Assembly (NCBI GenBank): GCA_964461725.1 | Contig: CAYWVN010000001.1 | Span: 1-47,691 of the forward strand | DNA length: 47,691 nt | Direction: 5' to 3' | From: an uncultured Coriobacteriia bacterium | GTDB lineage: Bacteria > Actinomycetota > Aquicultoria > CAYWVN01 | Part shown: positions 4,801 through 39,502 of the stretch, one piece after another | How the letters are laid out: each line of letters opens with the position of its first letter | How positions within the stretch are numbered: the first letter of the stretch is position 1 | Program-made: the position numbers and the translations under genes | The notes under the pieces: generated by a model | What the model saw: only the letters and a program-made list of their open reading frames with translations | The model's database searches: none | Told to the model about the DNA's origin: nothing

Positions 4801-6404
4801 AGGGGCGAGGCATCAACGCCTTCATCGGTCCCGCGCCCAGCAACTACTCGACTTCGAATTGCACGACCACCGGCTGCCATGGCTCGGACGACAACTGCTA
4901 CACGTGCCACGGCGAGACCGGCGGCAACCAGCGCGTGGTCTACCTGATGGGCCGCGGTTTTGCCGGCTCCGTGAACGGAGGTGTGGCCAAGACGTACCAC
5001 CACAACATGACGTCGCCGACGACGGCGTTTGCCGGGACTTCCGCGGATCCGCCGACGACTTCCGTCTCGACGAACACCTGCGAGGGTCGCTGTCACGCCA
5101 AGCATGCGGAGCATACCGGCACCAACGCCAAGTCACTCAGGGCCGGCAACGTGGAGCGCGAGCTGTGCCTCTACTGCCACGGCGTGGCCGGACGGGCCTA
5201 TCCGGCCCGGACGTTCACTTCCGTGTCGTACTCCGGGACGGCACATGACTACAGCACTCTGGGCTACACCGAGAACCGGTGGAACCCGAGCGTCGGCTAC
5301 AGCGCGAACTACCAGTACACCAAGAACTGCAACAAGTGCCATGCGCCGCACGGGACCAACATAAAGTATCTGGTCAACGAGGTAGTGGAGAACATGGGCA
5401 ATACCGGCTACGCCAACTACACTACGACGGCGGTCTCCGGCGAAGCCCAGCGGGATCGCGCCTGCTTCGCCTGCCACGGCCCAAAGGGCCCGGCCCCGCG
5501 TGACGTGAGCACCGCCTTCAATGAGTCCTCCAGGCACGACGTGTTCAGCACGGGGCAGGCCGGCCGCCATCAGGCGACCAGCACGGAGGCCACCGGTTCC
5601 GCCAACCGCCACGTGCTCTGCGAGGACTGCCATAATCCACACGGAGCCACAGCTTCGAACGTCCTCAGCGGGGTGTGGGGCGTGACGGTGAGCTACGGTC
5701 CACTCACCTACACGCGCATCGCGCAGGTCCAGACAGGCAAGGGGTGGCAGCTCTGCTTCAAGTGCCACAGCGGTTACGTGACTCTGCCGGCCGGAAGGCC
5801 GAACGTGGCAGTGCAGTTCACCCCCACAGTCGCTTTCCAGCACGGAGTCATGAGCGCCGGGGTCATGAACCCGAACGCCCTCATCGACGCCACGTTCGTG
5901 TCGCCGTGGACCAGGAACAGCCGAACCACATGCACGGACTGTCATGGTGACTCTGATTCGACCGCGCCCAAAGGCGTGCACGCCTCGGCCGCTGCGTCCA
6001 TCCTTCGGACGCCGACCAGCTCGGCGGCGCCCTCAGGCGCTTCCGACCAGTACGTCAACTGCTTCCTGTGCCACCGGTGGGAGGTCTACGACAACAATGT
6101 GGCGAACACTTCAGGCTCGCCCAGCGAGAACAACAGCCGGTTCGATCACAGTGGCTCCAACGGTGGCCATGACAAGCTGGTCGGAGACACGACCGTCTCA
6201 GGCATCTGGTGCCTGGCGTGCCACGGGGGCAAGGAAAAGGGCGGCATCCACGGGACCACGAACAACACGCTGCAGCATCTGAACGGGCAGTCCATCGCGT
6301 CCTATGCGAGCTTTACCGCCGGGACTATCACGTGTGACACGGTAGGTTCAGGCTCGGCGTGCACGCAGCACACCGGCGGCAAGTCGTATACCGCGAACTT
6401 CTAG
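1824..6404 (+). CDS. Giant membrane-anchored multihaem c-type cytochrome (19 CxxCH + 2 CxxxCH + 1 CxxxxCH, ~22 haem sites) with a cytoplasmic helical N-domain, one TM helix, a Ser/Gly-rich linker and an FN3-like domain
   Basis: Track ORF 1782..6404. Start is uncertain: GTG 1782, GTG 1824 or TTG 1830 (AGGAG at 1817-1821 is 8 nt before TTG 1830). TM helix YPQLAASFTMVSFLVASSWALASAL (~nt 2112-2192). S/G-rich linker at ~2292-2480. FN3-like segment LAVYAGDLENDLSWAAP...YYYKVRSVSKWG. Haem motifs run from nt ~3300 onward, many as CxxCHxxHG (CSACHSPH, CENCHYHHG, CNKCHAPHG, CEDCHNPHG). Variant sites: CTSICH, CTTTGCH, CEGRCH. Confidence 0.9.
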   Translation: MGLNARDLRQALDDSLELVLHQGLRTEQAAKRFPELESDLLPLLRTMAAARQAPAMRMPDPSKNRVWESVEDKITATAPPAGRFRVRAGRFLRHFNYPQLAASFTMVSFLVASSWALASALTPAPVSSPIQPDTRGGSVAAGAAGGVTAPGQLPTESYASGTGGGISVNPSSGTAGSSGSLSTGAGSTVASANTGDEDSSGGSGGDSGSSGSSGGGSSSTKKHKPKPPQGNHGTGDEGDGPGLPVSTPTSLAVYAGDLENDLSWAAPADASGRLKGYDVYRSDTEDGTYQKVNDAPVASSGYEDPISEDELGLYYYKVRSVSKWGQESGLTEAEPNLYVKISHRFAAAGSDEVIAANGKLSFLVPTASLTQDTTVTIDERDTAPIVEDARQASPPYDFGPDGLSFSDSAPAHLSMGYYFGVSDAELDLLLSTTVNLYYFDEASGSAVQVPDGDVAVDGASKTVNAAVRHFTTYWSSAKVNPHGNSSSGSTDWCTSICHGLHGGGYSATKWNAYDVCVQCHGNTNSYNPPAGAGLTTTAYNIEAGFIDCADQTYSDSTMSRHPAPESLMVCSACHSPHRKITDLTDNLYYRYRDPITPGNYASAYTYSYTASPLGNAFCWGCHGTQANVWSVAVGQIASISYYTQSLGDHRTGYESLAAHDVSLPASGAAPNAWVPPTSALGDRQGVNQSTNIRCENCHYHHGTSQARALTGYRLTSSYQGGREENLCYQCHTQTWKAGMKNIRGEFSKAYSHTVGSQTYYHNAYSESLTGVIAGQRHVECVDCHNTHRARMGTHTRGTNAVTGALVGAMGVVPNFGSTTGTAGSYAITQSATREYQICLRCHSSFDASAPKEISIDFNINNPSYHPVTSVGRNSTMAAGTLTAPWTASSTMYCSDCHTSDSTSISGPHGSTNAYMLARAYSTASRTSSTGFLCYICHQYNTYYAGTNTQSYFKKSGNDNLHYTHVNAAKAPQMNCWRCHDSHGSGFKQRLIAEGRGINAFIGPAPSNYSTSNCTTTGCHGSDDNCYTCHGETGGNQRVVYLMGRGFAGSVNGGVAKTYHHNMTSPTTAFAGTSADPPTTSVSTNTCEGRCHAKHAEHTGTNAKSLRAGNVERELCLYCHGVAGRAYPARTFTSVSYSGTAHDYSTLGYTENRWNPSVGYSANYQYTKNCNKCHAPHGTNIKYLVNEVVENMGNTGYANYTTTAVSGEAQRDRACFACHGPKGPAPRDVSTAFNESSRHDVFSTGQAGRHQATSTEATGSANRHVLCEDCHNPHGATASNVLSGVWGVTVSYGPLTYTRIAQVQTGKGWQLCFKCHSGYVTLPAGRPNVAVQFTPTVAFQHGVMSAGVMNPNALIDATFVSPWTRNSRTTCTDCHGDSDSTAPKGVHASAAASILRTPTSSAAPSGASDQYVNCFLCHRWEVYDNNVANTSGSPSENNSRFDHSGSNGGHDKLVGDTTVSGIWCLACHGGKEKGGIHGTTNNTLQHLNGQSIASYASFTAGTITCDTVGSGSACTQHTGGKSYTANF

Positions 6405-6427
6405 CCAGGAGAGGACGCACGGCCATT

Positions 6428-7825
6428 TTGGACACTCTCTTTGAACTACTGCGTTCGCGGAAGCTTGCCATAGGGCTCTTCATTGTGATCTCGGGGTTGG
6501 CCGTGGTGGGTACCATTGTGCCCCAGGCCCACCTGACACCGCCCGCGAGCTACCAAGCATTCTTGCAGAAGAACCCCACCCTGGCTCCCCTGGCCCAGAG
6601 GTTGGGTCTCACTGCCCTATACTACTCGTGGTGGTTCTACGCTCTTCTCCTATTGCTGCTGGCCAACACTGCGGCCTGCACCATCAGTCGCCTGGGTCCC
6701 CTGTGGCGCTTGCTGGCCGAGCCACCGTCGCTCAAGGACGCGCAGGCGATTGCGGCGATGCCCGGACACAGGAGCATCATGTGGCCGGACGTCCGGCCAT
6801 CGGACGGGGCCAAGCGGATCGGCGCGGTCTTCAGACGCGCCGGCTACGGCGTGAGACTGCACGAGGGCGAGTCAGGGACGCGGGCTGTCGCCTGGAAAGG
6901 ACGCGCCGGCCCGCTTGGCTCAATCGTCTTCCACTTGAGCTTCATCCCCATCGTGCTGGGTATTCTTTCCATGACGCTTTTTGGTCTTAGGGGAGTGGTT
7001 CTTGTCGACCAAGGAGAGCCGTGGAAGGAGGGCCACGGTGCGTATCTTTCTTTGAAGGAAGGCTATCTCTTTCGCGACCGCCATCCTGGGTTCCAGATCA
7101 CCTTGAACGGCGTCCGGCCCAGATACCGAAGGCGGGACCTTGTGGACCTGGCTGCCGACGTCACGGTGAACGGGGGGCTTGGGGAAAGGAAGCGGACAAT
7201 CGGTGTCAATCGCCCGCTGTCCCAGGACGGGTTTCTCCTTGTGTTGGACTCGTACGGGTTTGCCCCGCTGGTCCGGATTGCCGAGCGCGGTAGGGCGCGC
7301 TCCTACGCCTATATGAACCTCGGCTCGCGCGGTATCGAGGGCTCCGCCTTTGGGGACAGGTTCTCGATTGCAGGCAACCTGCAGGCGGACCTCCGCTTCT
7401 ACCCGGACGCCGTCTACGAGCGGGGCAAGGTGAGGGTTCTCTCACAGATCGCCCGCAGGCCTCTCGTCGAGCTGTTGCTTCGCCGGAACGGAAAGATCGT
7501 CTTCGACGGCCCGGTCGCGCTGGGAGGGACGGTGAAGCAGGGCGGCATGGCAGTGACGTTCTCCAAATGGCACCACTACGTAATCCTCAAGTTGATCAGA
7601 GACCCCGGCTGGTTCGTGCTGGTCGGGGGCTTCGTTCTGGCCGTTGCCGGACTAGTACTGCGCGCCGGCTTTGCATACCGCAGGTTCTGGATTGCGGTAG
7701 AAGCCCGCGGCAAGAGCCGACAGCTCCTCATGTCAGGAAGGAGCGACCGGTACGGCGCGTTCCTCGAACAGGAGATGGGGTCCTTGCTGTCAAGACTTCA
7801 GGAAGTCGGGGAGAAGGAGGCATAG
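6428..7825 (+). CDS. resB: Cytochrome c biogenesis protein ResB/CcsB (System II)
   Basis: N-terminus LFELLRSRKLAIGLFIVISGLAVVGTIVPQ is typical of ResB. TM helices flank a large extracytoplasmic loop. The likely start is TTG 6428, after AGGAGAGG (6406-6413); the track start 6359 would overlap the cytochrome gene. Confidence 0.8.
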   Translation: MDTLFELLRSRKLAIGLFIVISGLAVVGTIVPQAHLTPPASYQAFLQKNPTLAPLAQRLGLTALYYSWWFYALLLLLLANTAACTISRLGPLWRLLAEPPSLKDAQAIAAMPGHRSIMWPDVRPSDGAKRIGAVFRRAGYGVRLHEGESGTRAVAWKGRAGPLGSIVFHLSFIPIVLGILSMTLFGLRGVVLVDQGEPWKEGHGAYLSLKEGYLFRDRHPGFQITLNGVRPRYRRRDLVDLAADVTVNGGLGERKRTIGVNRPLSQDGFLLVLDSYGFAPLVRIAERGRARSYAYMNLGSRGIEGSAFGDRFSIAGNLQADLRFYPDAVYERGKVRVLSQIARRPLVELLLRRNGKIVFDGPVALGGTVKQGGMAVTFSKWHHYVILKLIRDPGWFVLVGGFVLAVAGLVLRAGFAYRRFWIAVEARGKSRQLLMSGRSDRYGAFLEQEMGSLLSRLQEVGEKEA

Positions 7826-8650
7826 GTGCTGTTCTATGAGACCATCTTCTTTTGGGTTGCGGTGGCCGGCTATGTCCTGGCCTTCGTCTATGGGCTTTTC
7901 TTGGTCGTCGCCCAGAAGGAATCCTCCCGGCTGTATGTTGCCCTGGCGGTGTCGGGTCTGGCTTGTCAGGCGGTGGCTATCGTGGTCAGGATTGACTATC
8001 TGTCGGCCCCACCGGTGCGCAATGTCTACGAGCTGAACATGCTGGGCGCCTGGCTGGTCGTGGCGATGTGGCTTGTTGTTCAGTGGAAATATCCGGAACT
8101 CAGGTCACCCGGGCTCGTCGTTCTAGCGGTGGCGTTCCTGATGATGGGCTTCGGCCTACTGTCACGGCCGGAGCTCAAACCCCTCACTCCGGCATACAAG
8201 AACCTATGGCTCTACGTGCACGTGTTCTTCGCCTGGTTTGCGTACGCGGCGTTCACAAGCGCATCGGCTGCCGCGATCTGGTTTCTATTGAGAGACCGCC
8301 CGCGGGCGCGTGCCGGGGACGAGCAGGCGGACCGGGCGCTGCTGGAACGTCTCGACTGGCTCGGCTATCGCCTGATTCTCTTTGGCTTCGCCATGAACGC
8401 AGTGATGCTTGTCTCTGGTGCGATCTGGGCTCGGGAGCTGTGGGGTAGCTACTGGAGCTGGGACGCGATAGAGACCTGGTCTCTGGTCGTCTGGCTGGCC
8501 TACGGTCTCTATCTCCACCTGAGAGCCAACTACGGCTGGAGGGGACGTCGGGCGGCCTGGTTTGCGGCTCTGGCGCTGCTACTAGTCAGCTTCAGCTTCT
8601 GGGGCGTAAACTACCTGACGTCTTCGGTCCATTCCTTCTACATGGCCTAG
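7826..8650 (+). CDS. ccsA: Cytochrome c biogenesis protein CcsA (System II haem lyase subunit)
   Basis: Trp-rich haem-handling motif WGSYWSWDAIETWSLVVWLAY in a polytopic protein. GTG 7826 directly follows the resB stop and is preceded by GGAGAAGGAGG. Confidence 0.9.
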   Translation: MLFYETIFFWVAVAGYVLAFVYGLFLVVAQKESSRLYVALAVSGLACQAVAIVVRIDYLSAPPVRNVYELNMLGAWLVVAMWLVVQWKYPELRSPGLVVLAVAFLMMGFGLLSRPELKPLTPAYKNLWLYVHVFFAWFAYAAFTSASAAAIWFLLRDRPRARAGDEQADRALLERLDWLGYRLILFGFAMNAVMLVSGAIWARELWGSYWSWDAIETWSLVVWLAYGLYLHLRANYGWRGRRAAWFAALALLLVSFSFWGVNYLTSSVHSFYMA

Positions 8651-13258: not shown

Positions 13259-13270
13259 GACAGGACCGCC

Positions 13271-26322: not shown

Positions 26323-26352
26323 GCCGCGGCGGCGGTCCGAGGTGAGGCCGTG

Positions 26353-27501
26353 ATGGTAGCTTCGCGTCTCAGTAGGCGGGAGTTCCTGGTCTACTGTGGA
26401 GCCCTGGCCGCCTGGTTGGGGCTCTCCGAACTGTACGTTCCCCAGATCGCCCGGGCGATCGAGCAGCTCACCAGACGCAAGGTGCCGCTCGTCTGGCTGC
26501 AGGGCCAGGCGTGCGCCGGCTGCACGATCTCGACTCTGAACTCCGGCGAGCCGACGGCCGCTGAGATCATCCTGGACGTGGCCTCGCTGCGCTACCAGCC
26601 CAACCTGATGGCCGCGACGGGCGACCAGGCGATGGTCGCGATACAGGACACCATCAAGAAGGAGAAGGGCAGGTTCGTCGCCGTCATCGAAGGCTCCATC
26701 CCGACCGCGCACAACGGCGCCTTCTGCGTGGTGGGTCGCGCGGACAACCGGCCGATCCCCTTCACGGCGCTGGCCCGCCAGGCCGCGGACGCGGCGCTGG
26801 CCACCGTTGCCGCTGGGACCTGCGCCGCATACGGGGGTATTCCGGCCGCGAACAAGGGGGTCACGGGTGCGCGCGGGGCCGAGGCGTTCCTGAACCGGCC
26901 CGTGGTGAACGTCCCGGGCTGCCCGACCCACCCGGACTGGCTGGTCGGCACTCTGGTCAAACTGGTTCTCTTCGGCAAAGACGCGGTGATGGCGGACTTG
27001 GACGGCCTGGGCCGGCCCAAGGAGTTCTTTCGCACGCTGGTCCACGACAACTGCCCGCGGCGGCACTGGTTCGAGGCCGGGCTCTTCGTCGAGGACTGGA
27101 ACGATCCCGCACAGGCCGGCCGATGCCTGTTGCTCAAGGGCTGCAAGGGCCCATTCACCTTCGCCGACTGTCCCAAGCGGCGGTGGAACGATCACGTCAA
27201 CTTCTGCATCGACGCGAACGCCCCCTGCGCGGGGTGCACGCAGCCCGAGTTCTACGCGCGCTTCGCACCCCTCTACCAGCGGTCCTTGTCCGTGCGGGTG
27301 CCGGGACTGGCCGGCGCGGAGGTTTCGGCCGACCGGGTGGGGATGGCCCTCGGGGTGGCGACCGCGGTCGGCATCGGGGCGCATCTGGCGGGTCAGATCG
27401 CGACGGGGCGCCTGGGCCACGGGGGGCCGCGCGAGGGCGCCGGCCAGGATGAGGGTTCCGGCCGCGCCGATGGCCCAGGCCGCGCCGATGGGGAGGGCTA
27501 G
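26353..27501 (+). CDS. [NiFe(Se)] hydrogenase small subunit, Tat-exported, with a C-terminal membrane anchor
   Basis: Twin-arginine signal SRREFLVYCGALAAW. Fe-S cluster motifs WLQGQACAGCTIS, GTCAAYGGIP, KGCKGPFTFADCPKRRWN and NFCIDANAPCAGC. C-terminal hydrophobic helix MALGVATAVGIGAHLAGQI. Confidence 0.9.
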   Translation: MVASRLSRREFLVYCGALAAWLGLSELYVPQIARAIEQLTRRKVPLVWLQGQACAGCTISTLNSGEPTAAEIILDVASLRYQPNLMAATGDQAMVAIQDTIKKEKGRFVAVIEGSIPTAHNGAFCVVGRADNRPIPFTALARQAADAALATVAAGTCAAYGGIPAANKGVTGARGAEAFLNRPVVNVPGCPTHPDWLVGTLVKLVLFGKDAVMADLDGLGRPKEFFRTLVHDNCPRRHWFEAGLFVEDWNDPAQAGRCLLLKGCKGPFTFADCPKRRWNDHVNFCIDANAPCAGCTQPEFYARFAPLYQRSLSVRVPGLAGAEVSADRVGMALGVATAVGIGAHLAGQIATGRLGHGGPREGAGQDEGSGRADGPGRADGEG

Positions 27502-27504
27502 CCT

Positions 27505-29085
27505 ATGGGCGAGCGCATCTCCATCGGGCCGGTCACGAGGATAGAAGGCCACCTCAACGTGGAGGTGGAGGTCGAGAACGGCAAGGTCGTCGAAGCCTGG
27601 GTGGGCGCTACCATGGCCCGCGGCTTCGAGCAGCTCATCGTCGGCCGAGACCCGCGGGACGCCCAGATCGTCATGCAGCGCATCTGCGGCATCTGCCCGG
27701 CCTCGCACGGACTGGCGGCCGCGCAGGCCCTGGACGAGGCGTTCGGCGCCGAGGTTCCCGACAACGGCCGCCTCGTCCGCAATCTGACCGTGGCGGCCGA
27801 CTGGCTTCAGTCGCACATCCTGCACTTCTATCATCTGGGGCTACTCGACTTCATAGATATCACCGCGGTCGGCACGTACAAAGGCCGTGACCCGGCTCTC
27901 AGGGCCGTCAAGGACAAGCTCGTCGCGCTGTCCGATTCGTCCGATCCCTACCCCTTTAGCCCCGGCTACCCGCCGGATGAGACCTCGGTGGCCGATCCAG
28001 GGACGGTGCTCACACTGGTGGCGCACTACCTCAAGGCGCTCGAGGTCCGAAAGAAAGCGCACGTCATGGCCGCCATCTTCGGCGGCAAGATGCCCCACTA
28101 CTGCTCCGTGGTGCCGGGTGGTGTCACCATGCACCCGCAGCTCTCCGATGTGACGGCGTTCCGGTTCCATCTGGCGGAGATCACGGACTTCATCAATGAC
28201 GTCTACGTCAAGGATGTTCTGGCACTCTGCACGGGACCCCTCCTCGAGATGGGCAAGAACGGCCTTGGCGTAGCCGTGCCCAACTATCTCTCATTCGGCA
28301 TGTTCGACCTGGAGGAATCGGGCAATACGACGAAGCCGCGCCTGCTGCCTCCGGGGGTGATCATGGACAGCAACGTAGCCCAGGTGCAGGAGCTCGATCC
28401 GTCGAAGGTGCGGGAGTTCGTCAAGGACTCTTGGTACACGGCGGCCTGCGGGAACCGGCATCCCAAAGAGGGCAGGACGGAGTTCATGACCGGCAAGGCC
28501 GAGGCGTACAGTTTCTCCAAGGCGGCCCGCTACGACGGGCGCCCCGTGGAGGTCGGGCCCCTGGCGCGGATGCTGGTCGGCGCGGACAAGACACTCTCGA
28601 GCCTGCTTGGCCAGTACCAGATCAAGTACGGTGCGGTCGCCCGTCATCTGGCCCGGGCGCTTGAGTGCCGGAAGGTCGCCGAGGCCATGATGTCGTGGGT
28701 GGAGGAGCTGGCCGGCAACCTGAAGGCAGGGAACGCGGACGTCTGCGACGATACGGCGCCGCCGGTCGCCGGCGTAGGCCGCGGTCTCGTGGAGGCGCCG
28801 CGCGGCGCGCTCGGCCACTGGATCGAGATCGCCGATGGTGTTACCAAGAACTACCAGGTGGTGTCGCCGACCACGTGGAACGCGGGGCCGCGCGACGACC
28901 AGGCGTCGCGGGGACCGATGGAAGAGGCGCTGATGAACACTCCGGTTTCGGACACGGCGGCGCCGCTGAACGTCATGCGAGTCGTGCGCTCGTTCGACCC
29001 ATGACTGGCCTGCGCCGTCCACGTGATTGGACTAGGGCCGGAACGTGAGAGGCAGTGTGCCCCAAACGGGGTGGGGGTGCTCTGA
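27505..29085 (+). CDS. [NiFeSe] hydrogenase large subunit; selenocysteine encoded by TGA 29002-29004 (the track ORF stops there)
   Basis: N-terminal Ni-ligand motif RICGICPASH. The track ORF ends ...VVRSFDP-TGA. In-frame continuation reads LACAVH-VIGLGPERERQCAPNGVGVL-TGA (29083-29085). This restores DP-U-xxCxxH plus a cleavable tail. Confidence 0.85.
29014..29038 (+). promoter_or_regulatory. SECIS-like hairpin downstream of the hydrogenase UGA
   Basis: GCC-GUCCA [CGUGAU] UGGAC-uag-GGC. The stem starts 10 nt after the UGA, and the apical loop contains G and U. Folded by hand only. Confidence 0.4.
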
Positions 29086-29600
29086 TGGCTGAAGACACCG
29101 GAAAGCCCGGAAAGCACGGGAAGCCAGAACGGATCATCGTGATGGGTGTGGGGAACACGCTACTCACCGATGAGGCCGTCGGGGTCAAGGTAATCGAAGA
29201 GCTGCGCGCTTACGACCTGCCGGACAACGTCCAGCTGGTCGACGGCGGAACCGGCGGACTGGACCTCATCGGCTACATGAGCCAGGCGGACCGTATGATC
29301 GTGGTGGATGCCGTCGACGCCGGCAAGCCGCCCGGCTCCATCTTCCGTTTCACGCCCCAGGACGTGGAGGGGGCGCTCGAGAAGAAGCAGGCCGCCATGT
29401 CGCTGCACGACGTCGGGCTGATCGAATCCTTCGTGGTGGGTCGCCAGCTCGGCCACGAGCCGGACGTCGTCATCATCGGTATCCAGCCCAAGGACCTCAC
29501 CTGGGGCATGGAGCTTACCCCGGAGGTCGCCGCCAAGGTCCCGCGGCTGATCGAACTGGTCCTCGAGGAGCTGGGTCTTTCCGGTTCTTCCCCGGGCTGA
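29085..29600 (+). CDS. Hydrogenase maturation endopeptidase (HyaD/HybD/HynC family)
   Basis: IIVMGVGNTLLTDEAVGVKVIEEL...VDGGTGGLDL...MIVVDAV...SLHD motifs. ATG 29085 overlaps the true large-subunit stop (TGATG). Confidence 0.85.
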   Translation: MAEDTGKPGKHGKPERIIVMGVGNTLLTDEAVGVKVIEELRAYDLPDNVQLVDGGTGGLDLIGYMSQADRMIVVDAVDAGKPPGSIFRFTPQDVEGALEKKQAAMSLHDVGLIESFVVGRQLGHEPDVVIIGIQPKDLTWGMELTPEVAAKVPRLIELVLEELGLSGSSPG

Positions 29601-29629
29601 GTCCCGGCAAGTCCGAACCCTGACTCAGC
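29596..29629. terminator. Weak inverted repeat between convergent genes (possible bidirectional terminator)
   Basis: GCTGAGTC (29596-29603) and GACTCAGC (29622-29629), an 8-bp stem with an 18-nt loop. No clear U-tract. Confidence 0.2.
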
Positions 29630-30184
29630 CTAGCCTGCGCGGTCCATCACGTACTTCAGCGTGCGTACGTTGTCTCTGATCGCAGTCTCTCCGGACGCGG
29701 GCTTCACGATAGCCGTAAGGCTGTTGGTGCTTCCCTGGTTCGAAGACACGCCGGAGAACACCAAGCGTCGGTTCGCGCCCATCGCCAATGAGGGCACGTT
29801 CCTGGCAAGAGTCGCCACATTCCGGTTCAGACTCTCGTCGCGGACCGTGAGCGTGACGCGGACCGAGCGCAACGGACGCACGCCGGTGTTCTTCACCTCG
29901 AAGAAGACGGTGAGCTGAGGGCGATAGGCAAGCAGGTGTACGCCGGTGCTTGGGTACACCTCCAGCACCTTCGCGTCGGTCGTGAGGCTCTCGATGGACG
30001 CATTCGTCCTCGATCGCCCCCCGTCGGTTCCCGTGTGCCAAGTAGGCTGGAAAGCTGCAGCTAGATACACCCCCACGCTGCTCATCACCAGCACCAAGGC
30101 GGTCGACAAGACGAATGACTCTAGAGTGCTCGTGTGGGCCGCTGCGGTCTGACGCTGGGTGCCGCCGGCTTTCTCTTCCGGCAT
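29630..30184 (-). CDS. Hypothetical membrane-anchored beta-sandwich protein (LEA_2/CARDB-like guess)
   Basis: Minus-strand ORF with RBS AAAGGA 8 nt before the ATG (30184). TM helix FVLSTALVLVMSSVGVYLAAA, followed by beta-rich alternating patterns (LTVFFEVKNTGVRPLRSVRVTLTV). Confidence 0.55.
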   Translation of the reverse strand: MPEEKAGGTQRQTAAAHTSTLESFVLSTALVLVMSSVGVYLAAAFQPTWHTGTDGGRSRTNASIESLTTDAKVLEVYPSTGVHLLAYRPQLTVFFEVKNTGVRPLRSVRVTLTVRDESLNRNVATLARNVPSLAMGANRRLVFSGVSSNQGSTNSLTAIVKPASGETAIRDNVRTLKYVMDRAG

Positions 30185-30352
30185 CGAGCGGATCCTTTCG
30201 TGTCTGGGGGTTCAACACCAAGATACTCCAAGATGATAGGCCAGGTCAAAGCGCACGTCCCGCGCGAATCCAGCGGTCGGAAGCCCAGGCGTCCCCAATC
30301 CGGAAGGCACAAGAGGAAAAGTGAAAAGGGGTACAAAGATTCCGCCACTTTG

Positions 30353-30358
30353 TATAAT
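30353..30358 (+). promoter_or_regulatory. Consensus -10 box TATAAT, ~270 nt upstream of the small cytochrome genes
   Basis: TATAAT at 30353-30358 with a weak -35 (GGTACA, 17-nt spacer). Strand assignment is uncertain because the region is divergent. Confidence 0.3.
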
Positions 30359-30626
30359 ACGAACACTGACAGGTGTCTGGGGGCACCGTGTATGCCCCGG
30401 CTGGCGGTATTGCCGGGGACATGCGGCCAGAGCCACCATCACCGTGTGCGTGTAGACGGTAAGCGCGCACGACTGCGGTTCATTTGCCGGGGTGCGACCG
30501 GCTGGACGCACCCGCCACGGCTTTCAACGCGAGATGCCCCCTGATACACGTGCTACTACGGGTCGTAGCCTCTCTGCACATCTAATCGAGAGAACAGGCG
30601 TTGTGCCGGGGAAGGGGGTGTACGGT

Positions 30627-30776
30627 ATGAAGAAGGCAGTAGCTCTGATGCTGTCGGCGCTCATCTTGGCGGTAGCGGTCAGCACCAGCGTGGCCACTCC
30701 ACAGAAGGCCAAGCAGACCGGCAAGGACTGCAGCTCGTGTCACAAGGGCGGCAAGACGGGCCCGGACGGCAAGTAG
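30627..30776 (+). CDS. Very small secreted monohaem c-type cytochrome-like peptide (49-aa precursor, ~25-aa mature)
   Basis: MKKAVALMLSALILAVAVSTSVA/TPQKAKQTGKDCSSCHKGGKTGPDGK. It has a classical signal peptide, a single CSSCH, and RBS GGGGAAGGGGGTG 7 nt upstream. It is embedded in the track ORF 30492..30776. Confidence 0.55.
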   Translation: MKKAVALMLSALILAVAVSTSVATPQKAKQTGKDCSSCHKGGKTGPDGK

Positions 30777-30782
30777 CATCCG

Positions 30783-31201
30783 ATGGCATCACGCGCGCGG
30801 CCGGTTGTCCCCGATAGACGCACTGCGAAACAAGCGAACCGGCCGGGGGCAACGGAAGGAGGGAGAAGTACGAGAGGCAAGGCAATCGCTCTGGTCGTGG
30901 TCCTCGCGCTGGCGGTCGTCACGCTGGCGGCGGCTTCCGCTTCCGCGGGCACAAAGTCCTCCGTTTGCGACAACAACATCTATGTCAAGCACATGCAGAT
31001 GGGCGGTGGCGATGCGGCGCGCTGCCTCGCGTGCCATGCCAGCAAGAAGGACGCGATGCCCGGGGAACTAAGGGGCAAGTACGCCAATATGGGGGCCCCA
31101 ACCACGGGTGCACGGACTGCCACTACGAAGGCGGCAAGGCTGTACCGCTGCCGCTGCCGTGGGGCGCCAACTCGTGCTCCGATTGTCATCCCGGCAAGTA
31201 G
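30783..31201 (+). pseudogene. c7-like trihaem cytochrome gene split by a 1-nt frameshift in a G5C4 run (31091-31099)
   Basis: Frame of 30783: signal anchor KAIALVVVLALAVVTLAAASASA plus CLACH. The -1-shifted frame of 30965..31201 reads GPNHGCTDCHYEGGKAVPLPLPWGANSCSDCHPGK-stop. Adding one G or C at ATGGGGGCCCC joins them. Each frame loses all motifs beyond the junction. Confidence 0.65.
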
Positions 31202-31275
31202 CTAGGCAATGGCGCTTGTAGGTTTGTAACGCACCGGCCGGGCCTCAGGCGGTCCAGGCGGGGACACAGCTTCGA

Positions 31276-31309
31276 ACATAGAGACGGGCACATGTGTCCG
31301 TCTCTATGT
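31276..31309. terminator. 34-nt near-perfect palindrome/hairpin between the cytochrome genes and hypA
   Basis: ACATAGAGACGGGCAC-AT-GTGTCCGTCTCTATGT, about 15 bp of stem with one G.U. There is no strong U-tract (TCTTCC follows), so it could be a terminator or a protein-binding palindrome. Confidence 0.45.
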
Positions 31310-31437
31310 CTTCCTGGGGTCGTCCACTTCGTGCGTCGCATGACACGATTCATGCGGGTCAGCGTCGCCGTCTGCACGGTTGCTTTCTGAACCGCCCTTG
31401 GCTACAGTCTTTGTACATTTGACGAGAGCAGGAGGGC

Positions 31438-31890
31438 ATGCACGAATTCGGCATCACCCAGGAGATACTGAGGATCGCCCAGGAGCGGGCGGAAGCCGCT
31501 GGTGCGGAGAAGGTCACCAAGGTGAAGTTGACCGTCGGCGCCATGACCGGCGTGGTCGAGGACAGCCTGCGCTTCTACTGGGACCAGCTCGTGGCCGGCA
31601 CGGTCGTCGAGGGGGCGGAGCTGGAGGTAGACAACGTACCCATCACCTTGCGCTGTCCGAGCTGCAACGAGGAGAGCGAGGTCGAAGACGTCGCGCTGAT
31701 GTGCCCCAAGTGCTCGGCGTTCGGGCCCGAGGTGATTGCCGGCAAGGAGCTGCAGGTGAGCTCGCTGGAGGTCGAAGGCGGAGAAGAACTTGTGGCGGGC
31801 GGCGAATCTGAAGAGCAGGAAGACGAGGGCGGGGAAGCGAACGCCGGCGCGGAAGCCGCGGCGCAAAGCCCCGTTGAAGGAGGTCAGTAG
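31438..31890 (+). CDS. hypA: Hydrogenase nickel-insertion protein HypA with an acidic C-terminal extension
   Basis: MHEFGITQEIL start. Zinc site CPSCN...CPKC. An extra ~45-aa Glu/Gly/Ala-rich tail. Confidence 0.85.
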   Translation: MHEFGITQEILRIAQERAEAAGAEKVTKVKLTVGAMTGVVEDSLRFYWDQLVAGTVVEGAELEVDNVPITLRCPSCNEESEVEDVALMCPKCSAFGPEVIAGKELQVSSLEVEGGEELVAGGESEEQEDEGGEANAGAEAAAQSPVEGGQ

Positions 31891-34388: not shown

Positions 34389-35426
34389 ATGGCCGATGAA
34401 GTGAAGCTCACGCAGCTGGCAAGCAAGGCGGGCTGAGCGTCTAAGATGGGTCCGGGAGACCTGGAGAAAGCGCTGGCGGGCCTGCCCCGCGAGGTATCGG
34501 ACGAGCTGCTGGTCGGCTTCGAGCATTCGGACGACGCGGCCGTGTATCGGTTCTCGGACGACTGCACGTTGATCCAGACGGTGGACTTCTTCACGCCGGT
34601 CGTCGACACGCCGTACCTCTTCGGCCAGATATCGGCCGCCAACTCCCTGAGCGATATCTACGCGATGGGCGGCGAGCCGGTGACCGTCATGAACCTGGTG
34701 GGGTTCCCCTGCCATCTCGACTTGAGCGTCCTCGGCGAGATACTGCGGGGCGGTGCCGAGAAGGTGCGGGAAGCGGGGGCCGTCATCGTCGGCGGCCACA
34801 CGGTCCAAGACGACGAGCCCAAGTACGGGATGGCCGTCACCGGGCGGGTGATAGACGGGCGCTTCACGACCAACGCGGCGTGCCGCCCGGGGGACCGGCT
34901 GGTGCTGACCAAGCGTCTCGGCATCGGGGTTCTCTCGACGGCGCTGAAGGGCGGGCTGATCGGTGAAGACGACATGATGCCGGCCATCGATGAGGCGCGG
35001 ATGCTGAACCGTGCGGCCGCCGAGGCGATGCGTGAGGTCGGGGCCCATGCCTGCACCGACGTCACCGGTTTCGGTCTGGCCGGGCACCTGAAACTGATGC
35101 TGGAGGCGAGCGGCGCGTCGGCGCGGCTTTTCGGCGACGCGCTACCCATCTGGGAGAACGCGCTGGAGTTCGCGGCGACCGGCGTCATCCCGGGCGGGGC
35201 GCATGACAACGAGAAGTACTTGGCGTCTTGGATCGATGTAGGCGGCATGCACGATACGCGGAAGGAGTTTCTCTTCGACCCGCAGACATCGGGTGGGCTT
35301 ATCATCTCGGTCGCTTCAGAGCGCGAGACGGAGCTCCTGGCCGCGCTGGAGTCTCGTGGTGTCGCCACCAGGGCGGTCATCGGCGAGGTGTTCGACGGAC
35401 CGGCCGGGCATATCGCGATTTGCTAG
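34389..35426 (+). CDS. selD: Selenophosphate synthetase SelD, itself a selenoprotein (TGA 34434-34436 = Sec)
   Basis: The track ORF starts at ATG 34446, but the frame is open upstream: ATG 34389 MADEVKLTQLASKAG-TGA-ASKMGPGDLEKAL. This is the SelD active-site loop G(C/U)xxK. RBS GGGAGGTGA lies 9 nt before ATG 34389. A hand-folded hairpin at 34447-34463 is a possible SECIS. Confidence 0.8.
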
Positions 35427-35440
35427 AAGGGGGAACGGAA

Positions 35441-36019
35441 GTGGAGGCGAAGACGGTCGACGCGCGCGGGCTGGCCTGCCCGCAGCCGGTAATACTCACC
35501 AAGCAGGCTTTGGACGGCGGGGCCGATGCGGTGACGGTGCTCGTGGACAACGAGGCGGCCGTCGGCAACGTCTCCAAGATGGGGACGGCCTATGGGTGCA
35601 ACGTCACCGTGGAGGGCGCCGCCCCGGACTTCAAGCTGAACCTGGTCCGGGTCGGGGAGAAGGAAGCCGCGGCGCCGGCGACCGGCGAGACCGTGTTCCT
35701 TATCACCTCGGACGTCCTGGGCCAGGGCAGCGAGGAGCTGGGTCTGACGCTCCGGCGCAGTTTCCTACACGTTCTGACTGAAGTCGACTGCAAGCCGACT
35801 AGGCTCGTGTTGATGAACAGCGCCGTCAAGCTGGTGGTGGAGGGCTCGCCGGTCCTCGAGGACCTGAAGGCTCTTGACCGCGCCGGCGTCGGTATCGCGG
35901 CTTGCGGTCTGTGCCTCGACTACCTTAATCTGAAGGACAAGGTGGCCGTCGGCGAGGTCGGCAATATGTACGACTTCGTCGAGACGTTCATGTCGGGTGC
36001 CAAGGTAGTGAGCATCTAG
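35441..36019 (+). CDS. yedF: Selenium metabolism protein YedF (TusA-like domain + DsrE-like domain)
   Basis: VDARGLACPQPVILTK (CPxP sulfur/selenium-carrier motif), then a DsrE-like C-domain (VFLITSDVLGQGSEELG...). GTG 35441 follows GAAGGGGGAA. The track start 35228 would overlap selD by ~200 nt. Confidence 0.75.
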   Translation: MEAKTVDARGLACPQPVILTKQALDGGADAVTVLVDNEAAVGNVSKMGTAYGCNVTVEGAAPDFKLNLVRVGEKEAAAPATGETVFLITSDVLGQGSEELGLTLRRSFLHVLTEVDCKPTRLVLMNSAVKLVVEGSPVLEDLKALDRAGVGIAACGLCLDYLNLKDKVAVGEVGNMYDFVETFMSGAKVVSI

Positions 36020-36049
36020 CCGCCGGAGCCGGCGAACAAAGGAACTCCT

Positions 36050-37468
36050 TTGCCCACCAAGAACGAACTGCTGCGCCAGATTCCATCGATCGACCAATTG
36101 GTGGCCTCGCCTGAGGCGTCCCGCGCGCTAGAGCGCTTCGACCGCGAGCTGGTGGTCGATTGCCTCAGGGAGGCGGTCGACGGGCTGCGCGCGCAAGTTC
36201 TGGCCGCACCCGGCGAGGAGGGCCCCGAAGGCGTGGAGGTCACCGCGGCCGCTATCGCCGGGGAGGCGGAGACGATCGTGCGGCGTCTCTTCCAGCCCAA
36301 CCTGCAGCGTGTCATCAACGCGACCGGGGTGGTCATCCACACCAACCTGGGGCGCTCGATCCTGTCGGTGGAGGCCTGTGAGGCTGTGCAGATGGCGGCC
36401 CGCAACTACTCCAACCTGGAGTTCGATATCGGCTCCGGCGCGCGCGGCTCGCGCCACAGCCACGTCGAGACACTGCTCCGCGGGCTGACCGGCGCCGAAG
36501 CGGGGATGGTGGTGAACAACAACGCGGCCGCTGTGCTCCTCGCACTGGCCGCGCTGGCCGACGGCAAGGAGTCGATCGTCTCGCGCGGTCAGCTGGTGGA
36601 AATTGGCGGCTCCTTCCGCATCCCGGACGTCATGAGCCAGAGCGGCTCCATCTTGCGGGAGGTCGGCGCGACCAACAAGACACACCTGGCTGACTATGAG
36701 GCGGCCATCGGTGAGCGGACCGGCCTCTTGCTCCGGGTCCACCCGAGCAACTTCAAGATGATGGGGTTCACCACCGAGGTGAGCCTGGAGGAGCTGGTCG
36801 AGCTGGGCGCCAAGCGCGGCATCCCGGTCATGGAAGACCTGGGGAGCGGCGTGCTGGTCGATTTGTCATCGTATGGGCTGCCCTTCGAGCCGACCGTTCA
36901 GCACTCGGTGGCCAGCGGCGCCGACGTCGTCACATTCAGCGGGGACAAGCTTCTGGGCGGGCCGCAGGCCGGCGTCGTCGTGGGCAAGACGGAAGCGGTT
37001 GCCCGCATGAAGAAGCACCCGCTGGCCCGGGCGCTCCGCGTCGACAAGATGACCCTGGCGGCGCTGGAAGCGACACTGCGCGGCTATCTCAACCCGGCCC
37101 GCGTGCTGGAGGACAACCCGACGGTGCGCATGATCACGGTGGGCCGTGACGAACTCGCCCGCCAGGCCCAGGGGCTGGCCGAGAAGCTCTCCGCGCTGGC
37201 AGATCATTTCGACATCACCTGCGAAGACGAGATTTCCCGCGCCGGCGGAGGGGCGCTGCCGATGACAGAGCTCCCGACCGTGGTCGTGGCGCTGAAGCCC
37301 AAGACCGCCCGCGTGGAGGCGATCGAGGCGGCTCTGCGCACGGGGACGCCGCACGTCATCGCGCGGGTCAAGGAGGACCGGCTCCTTCTGGATCCGCGGA
37401 CCATCCAGACAGGCGAGGACGACGAGGTTCTGACCGCGCTGACCGCCGCGATGGGCAGAAGCGGATGA
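36050..37468 (+). CDS. selA: L-seryl-tRNA(Sec) selenium transferase SelA
   Basis: N-terminus LLRQIPSIDQLV. PLP-lysine motif FSGDKLLGGPQAGVVVG. Typical length of 472 aa. Confidence 0.9.
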   Translation: MPTKNELLRQIPSIDQLVASPEASRALERFDRELVVDCLREAVDGLRAQVLAAPGEEGPEGVEVTAAAIAGEAETIVRRLFQPNLQRVINATGVVIHTNLGRSILSVEACEAVQMAARNYSNLEFDIGSGARGSRHSHVETLLRGLTGAEAGMVVNNNAAAVLLALAALADGKESIVSRGQLVEIGGSFRIPDVMSQSGSILREVGATNKTHLADYEAAIGERTGLLLRVHPSNFKMMGFTTEVSLEELVELGAKRGIPVMEDLGSGVLVDLSSYGLPFEPTVQHSVASGADVVTFSGDKLLGGPQAGVVVGKTEAVARMKKHPLARALRVDKMTLAALEATLRGYLNPARVLEDNPTVRMITVGRDELARQAQGLAEKLSALADHFDITCEDEISRAGGGALPMTELPTVVVALKPKTARVEAIEAALRTGTPHVIARVKEDRLLLDPRTIQTGEDDEVLTALTAAMGRSG

Positions 37469-37477
37469 TTCCGGTGA

Positions 37478-39403: not shown

Positions 39404-39405
39404 AT

Positions 39406-39502
39406 GGAGGCGAATCAGTCCTGGTGGGCTGCCTGGTCTTCAAAACCACGGTAGGGCGTGAAGAGCGTCCTGGGTAGGTTCGATTCCTACACGCCTCCGC
39501 CA
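39406..39502 (+). tRNA. selC: tRNA-Sec (anticodon UCA)
   Basis: GGAGGCG acceptor arm pairs with CGCCTCC-G-CCA at the 3' end. 6-bp D stem CAGTCC/GGGCTG with loop TGGT. Anticodon loop CT-TCA-AA. Long variable arm (AGGGCG..CGTCCT). T arm GTAGG-TTCGATT-CCTAC. 97 nt in total. My hand fold leaves a C.C mismatch in the anticodon stem and an A.A at acceptor pair 8. Confidence 0.85.

What the first reader, a model, noticed from the sequence alone, without database searches (positions are those of the whole stretch)
30627..30776. Miniature monohaem cytochrome: a 49-aa precursor predicting a ~25-residue haem peptide
This ORF is hidden inside a longer track ORF and has everything needed for expression and export. 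There is an RBS (GGGGAAGGGGGTG) 7 nt upstream, a classical Sec signal peptide (MKKAVALMLSALILAVAVSTSVA) and a single CSSCH. The mature part (TPQKAKQTGKDCSSCHKGGKTGPDGK) would be far smaller than any c-type cytochrome I know of. It contains no second His or Met for distal ligation, only Lys residues. It could be a natural microperoxidase-like haem peptide, a haem-carrying subunit that docks onto a partner (the hydrogenase or the neighbouring trihaem protein), or a decayed duplicate of the C-terminal haem site of the next gene. A consensus TATAAT at 30353 would give a ~270-nt leader.
Basis: seen in the sequence. Interest (0 to 1): 0.65.

Follow-up and report, generated by a model that had tools for sequence, protein, structure and literature searches.

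The report
Conserved miniature c-type cytochrome gene
The 49-codon ORF is a real, conserved gene for an exported peptide of about 26 residues with one haem-attachment motif, from an undescribed family that would be the smallest gene-encoded cytochromes; haem binding is not shown, and this copy has lost its usual partner gene.

Summary
ATG 30627 to TAG 30776 encodes MKKAVALMLSALILAVAVSTSVA|TPQKAKQTGKDCSSCHKGGKTGPDGK.

It is a gene, not a chance ORF. Its closest relative (L007) is 80.7% identical in DNA with no gaps, while both flanks are 44-48% identical. dN/dS is 0.19. Protein homologues occur on contigs of 36-65% GC, and 39 clusters match at E<1e-3. No Pfam or NCBIfam model covers the family, and I found no paper on it.

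Mature peptides are 24-46 residues and share TPxxAKxTGKxCxxCH plus a short, mostly basic tail. The same N-terminal module opens the surface cytochrome OmhA (PDB 6QVM) and resembles the published Cyc2 cytochrome-domain motif.

In 5 of 7 close loci the gene lies next to a c7-like trihaem cytochrome gene. The window also encodes System II haem attachment (ResB/CcsA, 6359-8650).

Two points cut against the window copy. It has Asp where six of its seven closest relatives have a second His (the seventh has Asn). Its trihaem neighbour is broken: ACG replaces the start codon and one base is missing. Both lesions appear in contigs from three separately sequenced rock samples.

The "decayed duplicate" and hydrogenase-subunit ideas are not supported. 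Haem attachment remains inferred.

The parts
30608..30618 (+). Shine-Dalgarno-like GGGGAAGGGGG, 8 nt upstream of the ATG
   Evidence: Read directly. The purine run and the ATG are conserved in L007, while the rest of the upstream region is not.
30627..30776 (+). Mini-cytochrome precursor gene, 49 codons plus TAG
   Evidence: Compared with L007 it is 80.7% nt identical with no gaps, and dN/dS is 0.19. Family members score E 1e-14 to 1e-24.
30627..30695 (+). Predicted Sec signal peptide MKKAVALMLSALILAVAVSTSVA, with cleavage inferred after S-V-A
   Evidence: It has a KK n-region and a hydrophobic core, and small residues sit at -3 and -1 in the members aligned. AF2 predicts a helix over residues 2-22. 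Cleavage is inferred, not shown.
30696..30773 (+). Predicted mature peptide TPQKAKQTGKDCSSCHKGGKTGPDGK (26 aa, 2645 Da without haem, pI 9.5)
   Evidence: The N-terminal TPxxAKxTGKxC module is shared by the whole family.
30729..30743 (+). CSSCH haem c attachment motif (Cys35, Cys38, His39)
   Evidence: Invariant in every family member aligned.
30765..30767 (+). Asp47 codon (gac), where six of the seven closest relatives have His
   Evidence: L007 has cac at this codon. The same base is present in contigs from the rock samples.
30854..30865 (+). Shine-Dalgarno GGAAGGAGGGAG of the downstream trihaem gene
   Evidence: Read.
30870..31201 (+). c7-like trihaem cytochrome gene (CLACH, CTDCH, CSDCH), inactivated here. 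ACG at 30870-30872 stands where L007 has its GTG start. One base is missing from the G5C4 run at 31091-31099, which shifts the frame before haem sites 2 and 3.
   Evidence: Homologues P0003, P0004 and L007 read YANMGGPNHGC across the junction. P0004 and P0003 pass Pfam's Cytochrome_C7 threshold (32.9 and 29.4 bits against 24.8), while the repaired window protein scores 19.3. Both lesions are identical in contigs of runs X1-X3.
31276..31309 (+). Perfect 15-bp hairpin after the trihaem gene, a candidate terminator for a mini-plus-trihaem transcript
   Evidence: z = -3.4. There is no U-tract, and no comparable structure lies between the two genes.
29630..30184 (-). Divergently oriented CARDB-like exported protein, with gene order conserved in the closest relative
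   Evidence: Pfam CARDB at 6e-5. L007 has the same gene order.
6359..8650 (+). ResB (6359-7825) and CcsA (7826-8650): System II cytochrome c synthase, the machinery that would attach haem
   Evidence: Pfam ResB at 2.4e-58 and Cytochrom_C_asm at 1.1e-39.

Best explanation
Window 30627-30776 is a functional-looking member of an uncurated family of miniature c-type cytochromes.

Proposed mechanism:
1. The 49-aa precursor is exported by Sec and cut after SVA. This releases a basic 26-residue peptide, TPQKAKQTGKDCSSCHKGGKTGPDGK.
2. The System II synthase encoded in the same window (ResB/CcsA) attaches haem to Cys35 and Cys38. His39 is the proximal ligand.
3. The N-terminal segment ATPxxAKQTGKxCxxCH is the same haem-1 module that opens OmhA. 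It matches most of the published Cyc2 cytochrome-domain motif and also opens CopD+cytochrome b5 fusion proteins. The mini-cytochromes are therefore that module on its own with a short tail.
4. In most members the tail carries a second His, a plausible sixth ligand to the peptide's own haem or to a neighbour's.
5. In the closest relatives the gene is paired with a c7-like trihaem cytochrome. The pair most likely acts as a 3+1-haem electron-transfer unit outside the cytoplasmic membrane.

In this window the pair sits beside a [NiFeSe] hydrogenase operon that has Tat genes and no cytochrome b gene. Here, however, the trihaem partner is a pseudogene and the mini copy has Asp in place of the tail His. 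This copy therefore either works alone, with an open or Lys-ligated sixth site, or is a recently orphaned gene.

Shown: the ORF, its conservation and purifying selection, the synteny with the trihaem gene, and System II in the window. Inferred: signal-peptide cleavage, haem attachment, ligation and the partnership.
For: - The ORF and its motifs are present as described.
- Against L007 the ORF is 80.7% nt identical with no gaps, while the flanks are 44-48%. dN/dS is 0.19.
- Eight family proteins match at E 7.9e-14 or better (the strongest 4.9e-24) in 5.8 billion sequences. In 1.84 billion representatives, 39 clusters match at E<1e-3 and 8 at E<1e-10.
- Members sit on contigs of 36-65% GC. One is a MAG labelled Nitrospira sp..
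- CxxCH is invariant, and small residues precede a conserved TP at the predicted cleavage site.
- A trihaem c7-like gene is adjacent in the window, L007, L003/L006, L005 and L008. The gene order varies and each gene has its own signal peptide. P0004 and P0003 pass Pfam Cytochrome_C7.
- Paralogue arrays exist: four copies in L008 and two in L004.
- The family profile hits the N-terminus of OmhA, PDB 6QVM, at E 8.5e-8.
- The Cyc2 consensus AXPXFAR[Q/K][T/Y]...CXXCH resembles ATPQKAKQT-GKD-CSSCH (PMC8406198).
- ResB and CcsA are in the window, together with two large multihaem cytochromes.
- Purified CcsBA attaches haem to CXXCH peptides as short as 9 residues in vitro (PMC8112865).
Against: - There are no expression, proteomic or haem data. 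No RNA run holds the locus.
- The window copy lacks the tail His found in 20 of 23 relatives.
- Its partner gene is inactivated. The lesions are the same in contigs from three separately sequenced samples, so they are not an error of one assembly.
- More distant members lie in loci with no other CxxCH gene within about 6 kb (L070-L076, L069). The trihaem link therefore holds only for the close subfamily.
- A 26-residue peptide cannot bury a haem, so a free form would be solvent-exposed and reactive.
- AF2 gives only a low-confidence model (pLDDT 68).
- Part of the wider module family was found with a DNA pattern that fixes KQTGKxCxxCH. Similarity inside that stretch is therefore by construction.
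Confidence: 0.6

Rival explanations
1. The gene family is real, but the window copy is a non-functional relic. It was orphaned when its trihaem partner decayed, has already lost its tail His, and has not yet been disrupted.
For: The partner gene has ACG in place of its start codon and a 1-nt deletion. These lesions are the same in three samples. The window has Asp47 where six of the seven closest relatives have His.
Against: The ORF, the RBS, the signal peptide and CxxCH are all intact. dN/dS against L007 is 0.19, although that figure averages over the whole divergence. Two other family members also lack a second His (P0016 and P0017). Several members stand alone without a trihaem gene.
Confidence: 0.25
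2. The exported CxxCH peptide does not carry haem. Instead it binds a metal or acts through its thiols. For example, it could be a Ni, Fe or Cu carrier, a CxxC redox peptide, or a decoy or regulator of cytochrome c maturation.
For: In the window it lies between hydrogenase and hypA/hypB nickel-insertion genes. In L004 it follows an FtrD-like iron-uptake cluster. The peptide is too small to shield a haem. Some members have no cytochrome gene nearby.
Against: The His of CxxCH is invariant across all members. The flanking module is the one that opens the 11-haem OmhA solved in 6QVM and resembles the Cyc2 cytochrome-domain motif. The hydrogenase/hyp context is unique to the window. The recurring neighbour is a cytochrome.
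Confidence: 0.1
3. It is a secreted cationic peptide or RiPP-type precursor, modified by a neighbouring radical SAM enzyme. It would act outside the cell, for example as an antimicrobial or a peroxidase-like haem peptide, and not as an electron carrier.
For: The mature peptides are lysine-rich, with pI 9-10 in the close subfamily. Tandem paralogue arrays with variable tails exist. In L005 a B12-binding radical SAM gene lies directly upstream of the trihaem-mini pair, and a similar gene is in the window at 9526-11064.
Against: The radical SAM gene is adjacent in one locus only and is 20 kb away in the window. The leader is an ordinary Sec signal peptide rather than a RiPP leader. No transporter, protease or immunity genes recur.
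Confidence: 0.04
4. It is a chance ORF in GC-rich intergenic DNA and not a gene.
For: The ORF is short. High GC content keeps many frames open, and the +1 frame is also open here. No curated family matches it.
Against: The peptide is conserved in contigs of 36-46% GC, where such ORFs do not arise by chance. The flanks are unalignable while the ORF is 81% identical. dN/dS is 0.19.
Confidence: 0.01

Closest known systems
N-terminal haem-1 module of OmhA, the 11-haem surface cytochrome of Carboxydothermus ferrireducens (PDB 6QVM)
   Same: A signal peptide is followed directly by ATEQYAKDTGKNCSYCH, compared with ATPQKAKQTGKDCSSCH here. The profile hit is E 8.5e-8. OmhA is a solved 11-haem cytochrome with 11 CxxCH sites, so its first site carries haem 1 (PMC9250108).
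   Different: In OmhA the module is the first of 11 haem sites in a 681-aa protein. Its authors found no homologue for that N-terminal extension (PMC9250108). Here the module is nearly the whole protein.
Cytochrome domain of Cyc2, the fused cytochrome-porin of iron oxidisers
   Same: Both are a single-haem domain placed at the mature N-terminus. The published signature AXPXFAR[Q/K][T/Y] upstream of CXXCH (PMC8406198) matches A-T-P-Q-K-A-K-Q-T at 7 of its 9 positions, counting the two unconstrained X positions. Metagenome loci L036 and L046 carry the same KQTGKSCxxCH...PKL start on a protein of about 440 aa.
   Different: The window peptide has no porin and no PXL motif four residues after CXXCH. 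The signature's Phe and Arg are both Lys. It is not a Cyc2 member.
Microperoxidases (MP-8, MP-11) and CXXCH peptides matured in vitro
   Same: Both are a haem c on a peptide of comparable, very small size with one proximal His. CcsBA accepts substrates this small (PMC8112865).
   Different: Microperoxidases are proteolytic or synthetic products. This peptide is genetically encoded, exported and under purifying selection.
Cytochrome c7 and c3 (class III multihaem cytochromes; Pfam PF14522 and PF02085)
   Same: The partner gene's homologues pass the PF14522 threshold. From my own knowledge, periplasmic hydrogenases that lack a cytochrome b subunit use tetrahaem c3 as acceptor in Desulfovibrio. 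A 3+1-haem pair beside such a hydrogenase would be analogous.
   Different: The mini peptide itself is not a c7 or c3 (E 0.02-0.7 at best). The 3+1 complementation is my hypothesis and is untested. The partner is broken in this window.
Small class I monohaem cytochromes c (c-551, c-553; about 70-85 residues)
   Same: They share a basic N-terminal segment, CxxCH and a Gly-Pro shortly after it. There is a weak sub-threshold hit to Cytochrome_CBB3 (E 0.066).
   Different: The mini peptide is about a third of the length. It lacks the remaining helices and the Met loop, and it fails Pfam thresholds.

Membership tests
c-type cytochrome (covalent haem via CxxCH) | A CxxCH motif | tested here: met
   CSSCH is encoded at 30729-30743. 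The motif is invariant in all homologues.
c-type cytochrome (covalent haem via CxxCH) | Export to the outer side of the cytoplasmic membrane | tested here: met
   The signal peptide has a KK n-region, a hydrophobic core and small residues at -3/-1. This holds for the members aligned. No signal-peptide predictor was available, so the judgement rests on sequence inspection and on the AF2 helix over residues 2-22.
c-type cytochrome (covalent haem via CxxCH) | A cytochrome c maturation system in the same genome | tested here: met
   ResB is at 6359-7825 and CcsA at 7826-8650 in the window. CcsA or ResB genes also lie near relatives in L002 and L005.
c-type cytochrome (covalent haem via CxxCH) | Haem covalently bound to the mature polypeptide | not testable with these tools
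   This needs a haem stain, mass spectrometry or a pyridine haemochrome. Only plausibility is available: CcsBA matures 9-mer peptides in vitro.
Mini-cytochrome family (defined here) | A precursor under 70 aa with a signal peptide followed by TPxxAKxTGKxCxxCH | tested here: met
   The window has TPQKAKQTGKDCSSCH. It is 78% identical to P0009 and 49-61% identical to P0005, P0006, P0008 and P0010.
Mini-cytochrome family (defined here) | A second His in the short C-terminal tail (GPHGK in the close subfamily) | tested here: not met
   The window reads GPDGK. Of 23 members, 20 have an extra His; P0016 and P0017 also lack it.
Mini-cytochrome family (defined here) | An adjacent intact c7-like trihaem gene (close subfamily) | tested here: inconclusive
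   The gene is present and adjacent, but ACG replaces the start codon and the frame is shifted.
Cyc2 fused cytochrome-porin | The AXPXFAR[Q/K][T/Y] motif upstream of CXXCH | tested here: inconclusive
   ATPQKAKQT matches A, P, A, Q and T, but Phe and Arg are both Lys. The comparison is with the consensus printed in PMC8406198, not with a Cyc2 profile.
Cyc2 fused cytochrome-porin | A PXL motif 4 residues after CXXCH and a 16-strand porin (at least 365 aa) | tested here: not met
   The tail is KGGKTGPDGK followed by the stop codon. The whole protein is 49 aa.
Class I cytochrome c (Pfam Cytochrom_C / Cytochrome_CBB3) | A profile match above Pfam's threshold, and a distal Met or His | tested here: not met
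   The best hit is Cytochrome_CBB3 at E 0.066, 14 bits against a cut-off of 27. The mature window peptide has no Met and no second His.
Cytochrome c7 (PF14522), for the neighbouring gene | A profile match above Pfam's threshold, and three CxxCH motifs | tested here: inconclusive
   Homologues P0004 and P0003 pass with 32.9 and 29.4 bits against a cut-off of 24.8. The window protein, read through its frameshift, scores 19.3 bits. Three CxxCH motifs are present.

The most novel reading that the evidence does not exclude
These 24-46-residue peptides are the smallest natural cytochromes. They work by sharing ligands between molecules: the tail His of one peptide ligates the haem of another peptide or of the c7-like partner. 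In some members the tail His is only about 5 residues after the proximal His, which I judge too close to reach the far face of the same haem. This would give either a detachable fourth haem that turns a c7 into a c3-like acceptor for the neighbouring hydrogenase, or coordination oligomers of cationic haem peptides that serve as a diffusible or matrix-bound electron conduit in rock-dwelling microbes.
Probability: 0.12. Interest if true: 0.85.

Novelty: new variant of a known kind. Interest (0 to 1): 0.62.

Why it matters
If the peptides carry haem, they would set a new lower size limit for a natural cytochrome: about 2.6 kDa of peptide, against roughly 7-9 kDa for the smallest characterised ones. 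That would make them gene-encoded counterparts of microperoxidases.

They would show that one N-terminal haem module is used alone, fused to porins (Cyc2), fused to membrane CopD+b5 proteins, and placed at the start of large surface multihaem cytochromes. Its structural place in OmhA was noted in the literature as having no known homologue.

They would also give a very simple natural substrate for studying System II haem attachment. They suggest a new kind of small electron carrier in subsurface and rock communities.

The case also shows how such genes are missed. In two relatives the ORF or its partner was not called, and in one of them an overlapping ORF in another frame was called instead.

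Tried and rejected
- The genome-contig scan with the hydrogenase large subunit found no relative.
- The metagenome scan with the first two-sequence peptide alignment had no tblastn-confirmed hit. A direct degenerate DNA pattern then worked.
- The first protein search, with the window peptide alone, found only itself. Homologues appeared only after the uncalled ORF in L003 was seen.
- Pfam and NCBIfam have nothing above threshold for the peptide, the wider module or the barrel fusion.
- Rfam finds nothing in 29500-31500.
- AF2 of the mini family gave pLDDT 68, with only the signal helix and a short turn at CxxCH. AF2 of the trihaem partner gave pLDDT 48. Both are too poor for fold searches, so none were run.
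- The PDB sequence search with the trihaem profile returned only noise.
- No RNA-seq runs were available for the window or for L005.
- Four literature searches for naturally encoded mini-cytochromes found nothing relevant.
- The "duplicate of the trihaem C-terminal site" idea was rejected. The two share only CxxCH and a GGK-like stretch, and the peptide has its own widely distributed N-terminal module.
- "Hydrogenase subunit" was rejected as a family property, because no other locus has a hydrogenase in its held flanks.
- I looked for a common partner of the wider module's stand-alone proteins of about 45 mature residues. Their neighbourhoods are heterogeneous.

Full report
**1. What is in the sequence**

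The ORF is exactly as described. ATG is at 30627 and TAG at 30774-30776. The product is MKKAVALMLSALILAVAVSTSVATPQKAKQTGKDCSSCHKGGKTGPDGK.

A purine-rich stretch, GGGGAAGGGGG (30608-30618), ends 8 nt before the ATG. The ORF lies inside a longer same-frame ORF that starts at GTG 30492. Public gene callers already call it, either from GTG 30603 (57 aa, P0001) or from the ATG (49 aa, in a Logan contig).

TATAAT is present at 30353-30358. It has no acceptable -35 hexamer, so the promoter scan did not report it. Rfam finds nothing in 29500-31500.

**2. Genomic context in the window**

Upstream, in order, are:
- TatA and TatC;
- a hydrogenase small subunit (26350-27501);
- a hydrogenase large subunit (27505 onward);
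- a HycI-type maturation protease;
- a divergently oriented CARDB-like gene (29630-30184, minus strand).

Downstream is a gene with three CxxCH motifs, followed by hypA, hypB, an HD-domain gene, a class V aminotransferase, selD, a TusA-like gene, selA, selB and tRNA-Sec.

The hydrogenase large subunit reads through a TGA codon as DP-U-LACAVH, so it is a [NiFeSe] enzyme. No cytochrome b gene was identified between the large-subunit gene and the protease gene.

Further upstream the window holds:
- a 1540-aa multihaem cytochrome;
- ResB and CcsA (System II, 6359-8650);
- a B12-binding radical SAM gene;
- TPR and NHL proteins;
- a Wzy_C/TPR protein;
- a 947-aa multihaem cytochrome.

**3. The ORF is a conserved gene**

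A search with the peptide alone found only itself. Searching instead with the neighbouring trihaem protein, read through its frameshift, found two homologues.

Upstream of one of them, on a 45% GC contig, is an uncalled ORF: MKTVKKLIVALALGAFLAGSLVPLYATPQKHKQTGKACKECHQGSKTGPHGKR (L003). JGI had called an overlapping ORF in another frame there.

With this second sequence, further scans recovered:
- a tandem pair in a MAG labelled Nitrospira sp. (L004);
- eight database proteins at E 7.9e-14 or better, the strongest at 4.9e-24;
- 39 clusters at E<1e-3, eight of them at E<1e-10, in an index-free search of 1.84 billion representatives.

Carrier contigs range from 36% to 65% GC.

The closest relative, L007, comes from a different run and shares the gene order CARDB(-) / mini / trihaem. 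Against it:

| Segment | nt identity to L007 |
|---|---|
| Mini ORF | 80.7%, no gaps |
| 5' flank | 48% |
| 3' flank | 44% |
| Trihaem gene | 75% |
| CARDB-like gene | 53% |

Substitutions fall 9/5/15 by codon position, and dN/dS is 0.19. The frame is conserved.

**4. Anatomy of the family**

All members have a Lys-rich n-region, a hydrophobic core and small residues at -3/-1. Next comes a conserved TP and the block TPxxAKxTGKxCxxCH. A short tail of 7-30 residues follows.

Predicted mature lengths are 24-46 residues. In the close subfamily the pI is 9-10.

CxxCH is invariant. Of 23 compiled members, 20 have at least one further His. It usually follows the motif at variable spacing: CHSGGRHH, CHSKISH, CHKGSKAGPH or CH(x)12PH.

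The window (GPDGK), P0016 and P0017 lack a further His. So "no distal ligand" describes this copy and not the family.

No Pfam or NCBIfam model reaches threshold. Four literature searches found no description of such genes.

**5. What the module is related to**

*OmhA.* The family profile hits the N-terminus of the 11-haem surface cytochrome OmhA at E 8.5e-8. The OmhA sequence there is ...PVLATEQYAKDTGKNCSYCHQ (PDB 6QVM). The OmhA authors state that no homologue was found for that N-terminal two-haem extension (PMC9250108).

*Cyc2.* The published Cyc2 cytochrome-domain consensus is AXPXFAR[Q/K][T/Y] upstream of CXXCH, with PXL four residues after it (PMC8406198). ATPQKAKQT-GKD-CSSCH resembles the first part. 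The PXL motif and the porin are absent here.

*Wider module.* A degenerate DNA pattern for KQTGKxCxxCH in metagenome contigs returned 60 loci. Many start, directly after a signal peptide, with ATxEYAKQTGKxCxxCHxxPxGGGxLTxxGxxFKA. They fall into four forms:
- stand-alone proteins with about 45 mature residues;
- a variant with 29 mature residues;
- the N-terminus of membrane proteins with CopD and cytochrome b5-like domains;
- the N-terminus of a barrel-like protein of about 440 aa with a PKL motif.

The KQTGKxCxxCH stretch in these loci is similar by construction of the pattern. The position after the signal peptide and the preceding ATPxxA are independent similarities. The index-free profile search also found such proteins without any pattern (P0024, P0026, P0027, P0033, P0040, P0042 and P0044).

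My reading is that the mini-cytochromes are this N-terminal single-haem module on its own with a minimal tail.

**6. The partner gene**

A trihaem gene is immediately adjacent in five loci: the window, L007, L003/L006, L005 and L008. Its hallmarks are YVKHxxMxGGD...CxxCH...YANMGGPNHxCxDCH...CxxCH.

The gene order varies between loci, and each gene has its own signal peptide. In L005 the trihaem gene was not called. L008 has one trihaem gene and four mini paralogues.

P0004 and P0003 pass Pfam's Cytochrome_C7 threshold. The trihaem protein has five His and a conserved H-x-x-M. From my own knowledge, c7 has H-x-x-H at that position. If that is right, the trihaem's three haems can be fully ligated internally. 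This is an inference.

More distant mini genes have no other CxxCH gene within about 6 kb. Examples are P0018, on Firmicute-like contigs beside a CRP-family regulator, and P0025, P0013 and P0012.

No hydrogenase lies in the held flanks of any other locus. Those flanks run from under 1 kb to about 10 kb per side.

**7. State of the window copy**

The window's trihaem gene is inactivated. ACG stands where L007 has its GTG start codon. One base is missing from the G5C4 run at 31091-31099. The reading frame is therefore lost before haem sites 2 and 3, whereas all homologues read YANMGGPNHGC across that point.

Contigs from three separately sequenced rock-metagenome samples cover all of 30627-31300 with no differences from the window. 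A fourth covers only parts of the region. The identical stretch includes both lesions and the Asp47 codon. These are therefore real features of the population, although depth is only 3-5x and only assembler contigs could be laid.

The mini ORF itself is intact. A perfect 15-bp hairpin at 31276-31309 follows the pair. No comparable structure lies between the two genes.

**8. Most likely mechanism**

The steps below are inferred unless marked otherwise.
1. Sec export, then cleavage after SVA.
2. Haem attachment by ResB/CcsA. These genes are shown to be encoded in the window. Purified CcsBA is shown to accept CXXCH peptides as short as 9 residues in vitro (PMC8112865).
3. His39 acts as the proximal ligand.
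4. In most relatives the tail His acts as sixth ligand, to the peptide's own haem or to a neighbouring one.
5. Electron exchange with the c7-like partner.

In the window this 3+1-haem pair sits beside a [NiFeSe] hydrogenase operon with Tat genes and no cytochrome b gene. From my own knowledge, that arrangement uses tetrahaem c3 as acceptor in Desulfovibrio. The partner is dead here, however, so this copy either acts alone or is being lost.

**9. Verdict**

The central interpretation, a real miniature exported CxxCH peptide, is well supported by comparative evidence. Haem binding is plausible but untested.

The "decayed duplicate" idea is rejected. The hydrogenase link is not conserved. The family is uncurated, and I found no description of it in the libraries and papers searched.

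I rate it a new variant of a known kind, with interest 0.62.

Noticed in passing
window 27505-29085, 34446-39502: The hydrogenase large subunit is a selenoprotein. The ORF 'ends' at TGA 29002-29004 but continues as DP-U-LACAVHVIGLG... to a stop at 29083-29085, which is the [NiFeSe] motif. selD, selA, selB and tRNA-Sec (39406-39502) lie 5-10 kb downstream.
   Followed up: partly
window 1782-18451; L005 1-16655: A large cytochrome gene neighbourhood is present in the window. It comprises a 1540-aa multihaem protein, ResB, CcsA, a 222-aa unknown, a B12-binding radical SAM gene, TPR and NHL proteins, a Wzy_C+TPR protein and a 947-aa multihaem protein. L005, where the mini gene sits inside the cluster, repeats part of it: Wzy_C, CcsA, a 1475-aa multihaem protein, a B12-binding radical SAM gene and an NHL protein. 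No ResB or TPR hit was recorded there.
   Followed up: partly
L009, L010, L013, L016, L028, L039, L055, L061 (metagenome contigs): A wider family of stand-alone proteins has a signal peptide followed by ATxEYAKQTGKxCxxCHxxPxGGGxLTxxGxxFKA, with about 45 mature residues. Most come from contigs whose names suggest peat or soil metagenomes. No Pfam model covers them, and their neighbourhoods are heterogeneous.
   Followed up: partly
L044, L048, L060, L066; L036, L046: The same N-terminal single-haem module is fused to membrane proteins with CopD and cytochrome b5-like domains. It is also fused to a barrel-like protein of about 440 aa that has a PKL motif after CxxCH, as in Cyc2. No curated model matches the barrel protein.
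   Followed up: partly
L021, L057, L058, L068: A further mini variant has about 29 mature residues, ATPDMAKQTGK[AP]C[TG]xCHTAMPPTKDNA[PT]KK. Its possible sixth ligand is Met rather than His. It appears on four contigs with JGI-style (Ga...) names.
   Followed up: no
L008 800-2600: Four mini-cytochrome paralogues with different tails and one c7-like gene are packed into 1.8 kb. They lie downstream of a response-regulator-like gene that I read by eye as AraC-type; it was not scanned against a family library.
   Followed up: partly
L003 175-336; L005 9617-9967: There are annotation gaps in public data. The mini ORF in L003 was not called, and JGI called an overlapping 76-aa ORF in another frame instead. 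The trihaem gene in L005 was not called at all.
   Followed up: yes
window 31276-31309: A perfect 15-bp inverted repeat (ACATAGAGACGGGCA / TGTCCGTCTCTATGT) lies after the trihaem pseudogene. The fold is -31.8 kcal/mol with z = -3.4, and there is no U-tract.
   Followed up: partly
L009 and L061: Here the stand-alone module gene lies near what looks by eye like a TorD-like chaperone. In L009 it is also near an 800-aa protein with a twin-arginine signal. This hints at a different partnership, with a Tat-exported molybdoenzyme. Neither neighbour was scanned against a family library.
   Followed up: no
L070-L073 (P0018): A 49-aa member with the mature sequence TPDKAEKTGKTCGECHSKISHKPFGN is found on 12 contigs. 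Some come from rock porewater metagenomes, in an organism with SLH-domain proteins. The gene is solitary and lies divergent from a CRP/FNR-type regulator. L006 also has a CRP-type regulator about 1 kb downstream of its mini-trihaem pair.
   Followed up: partly
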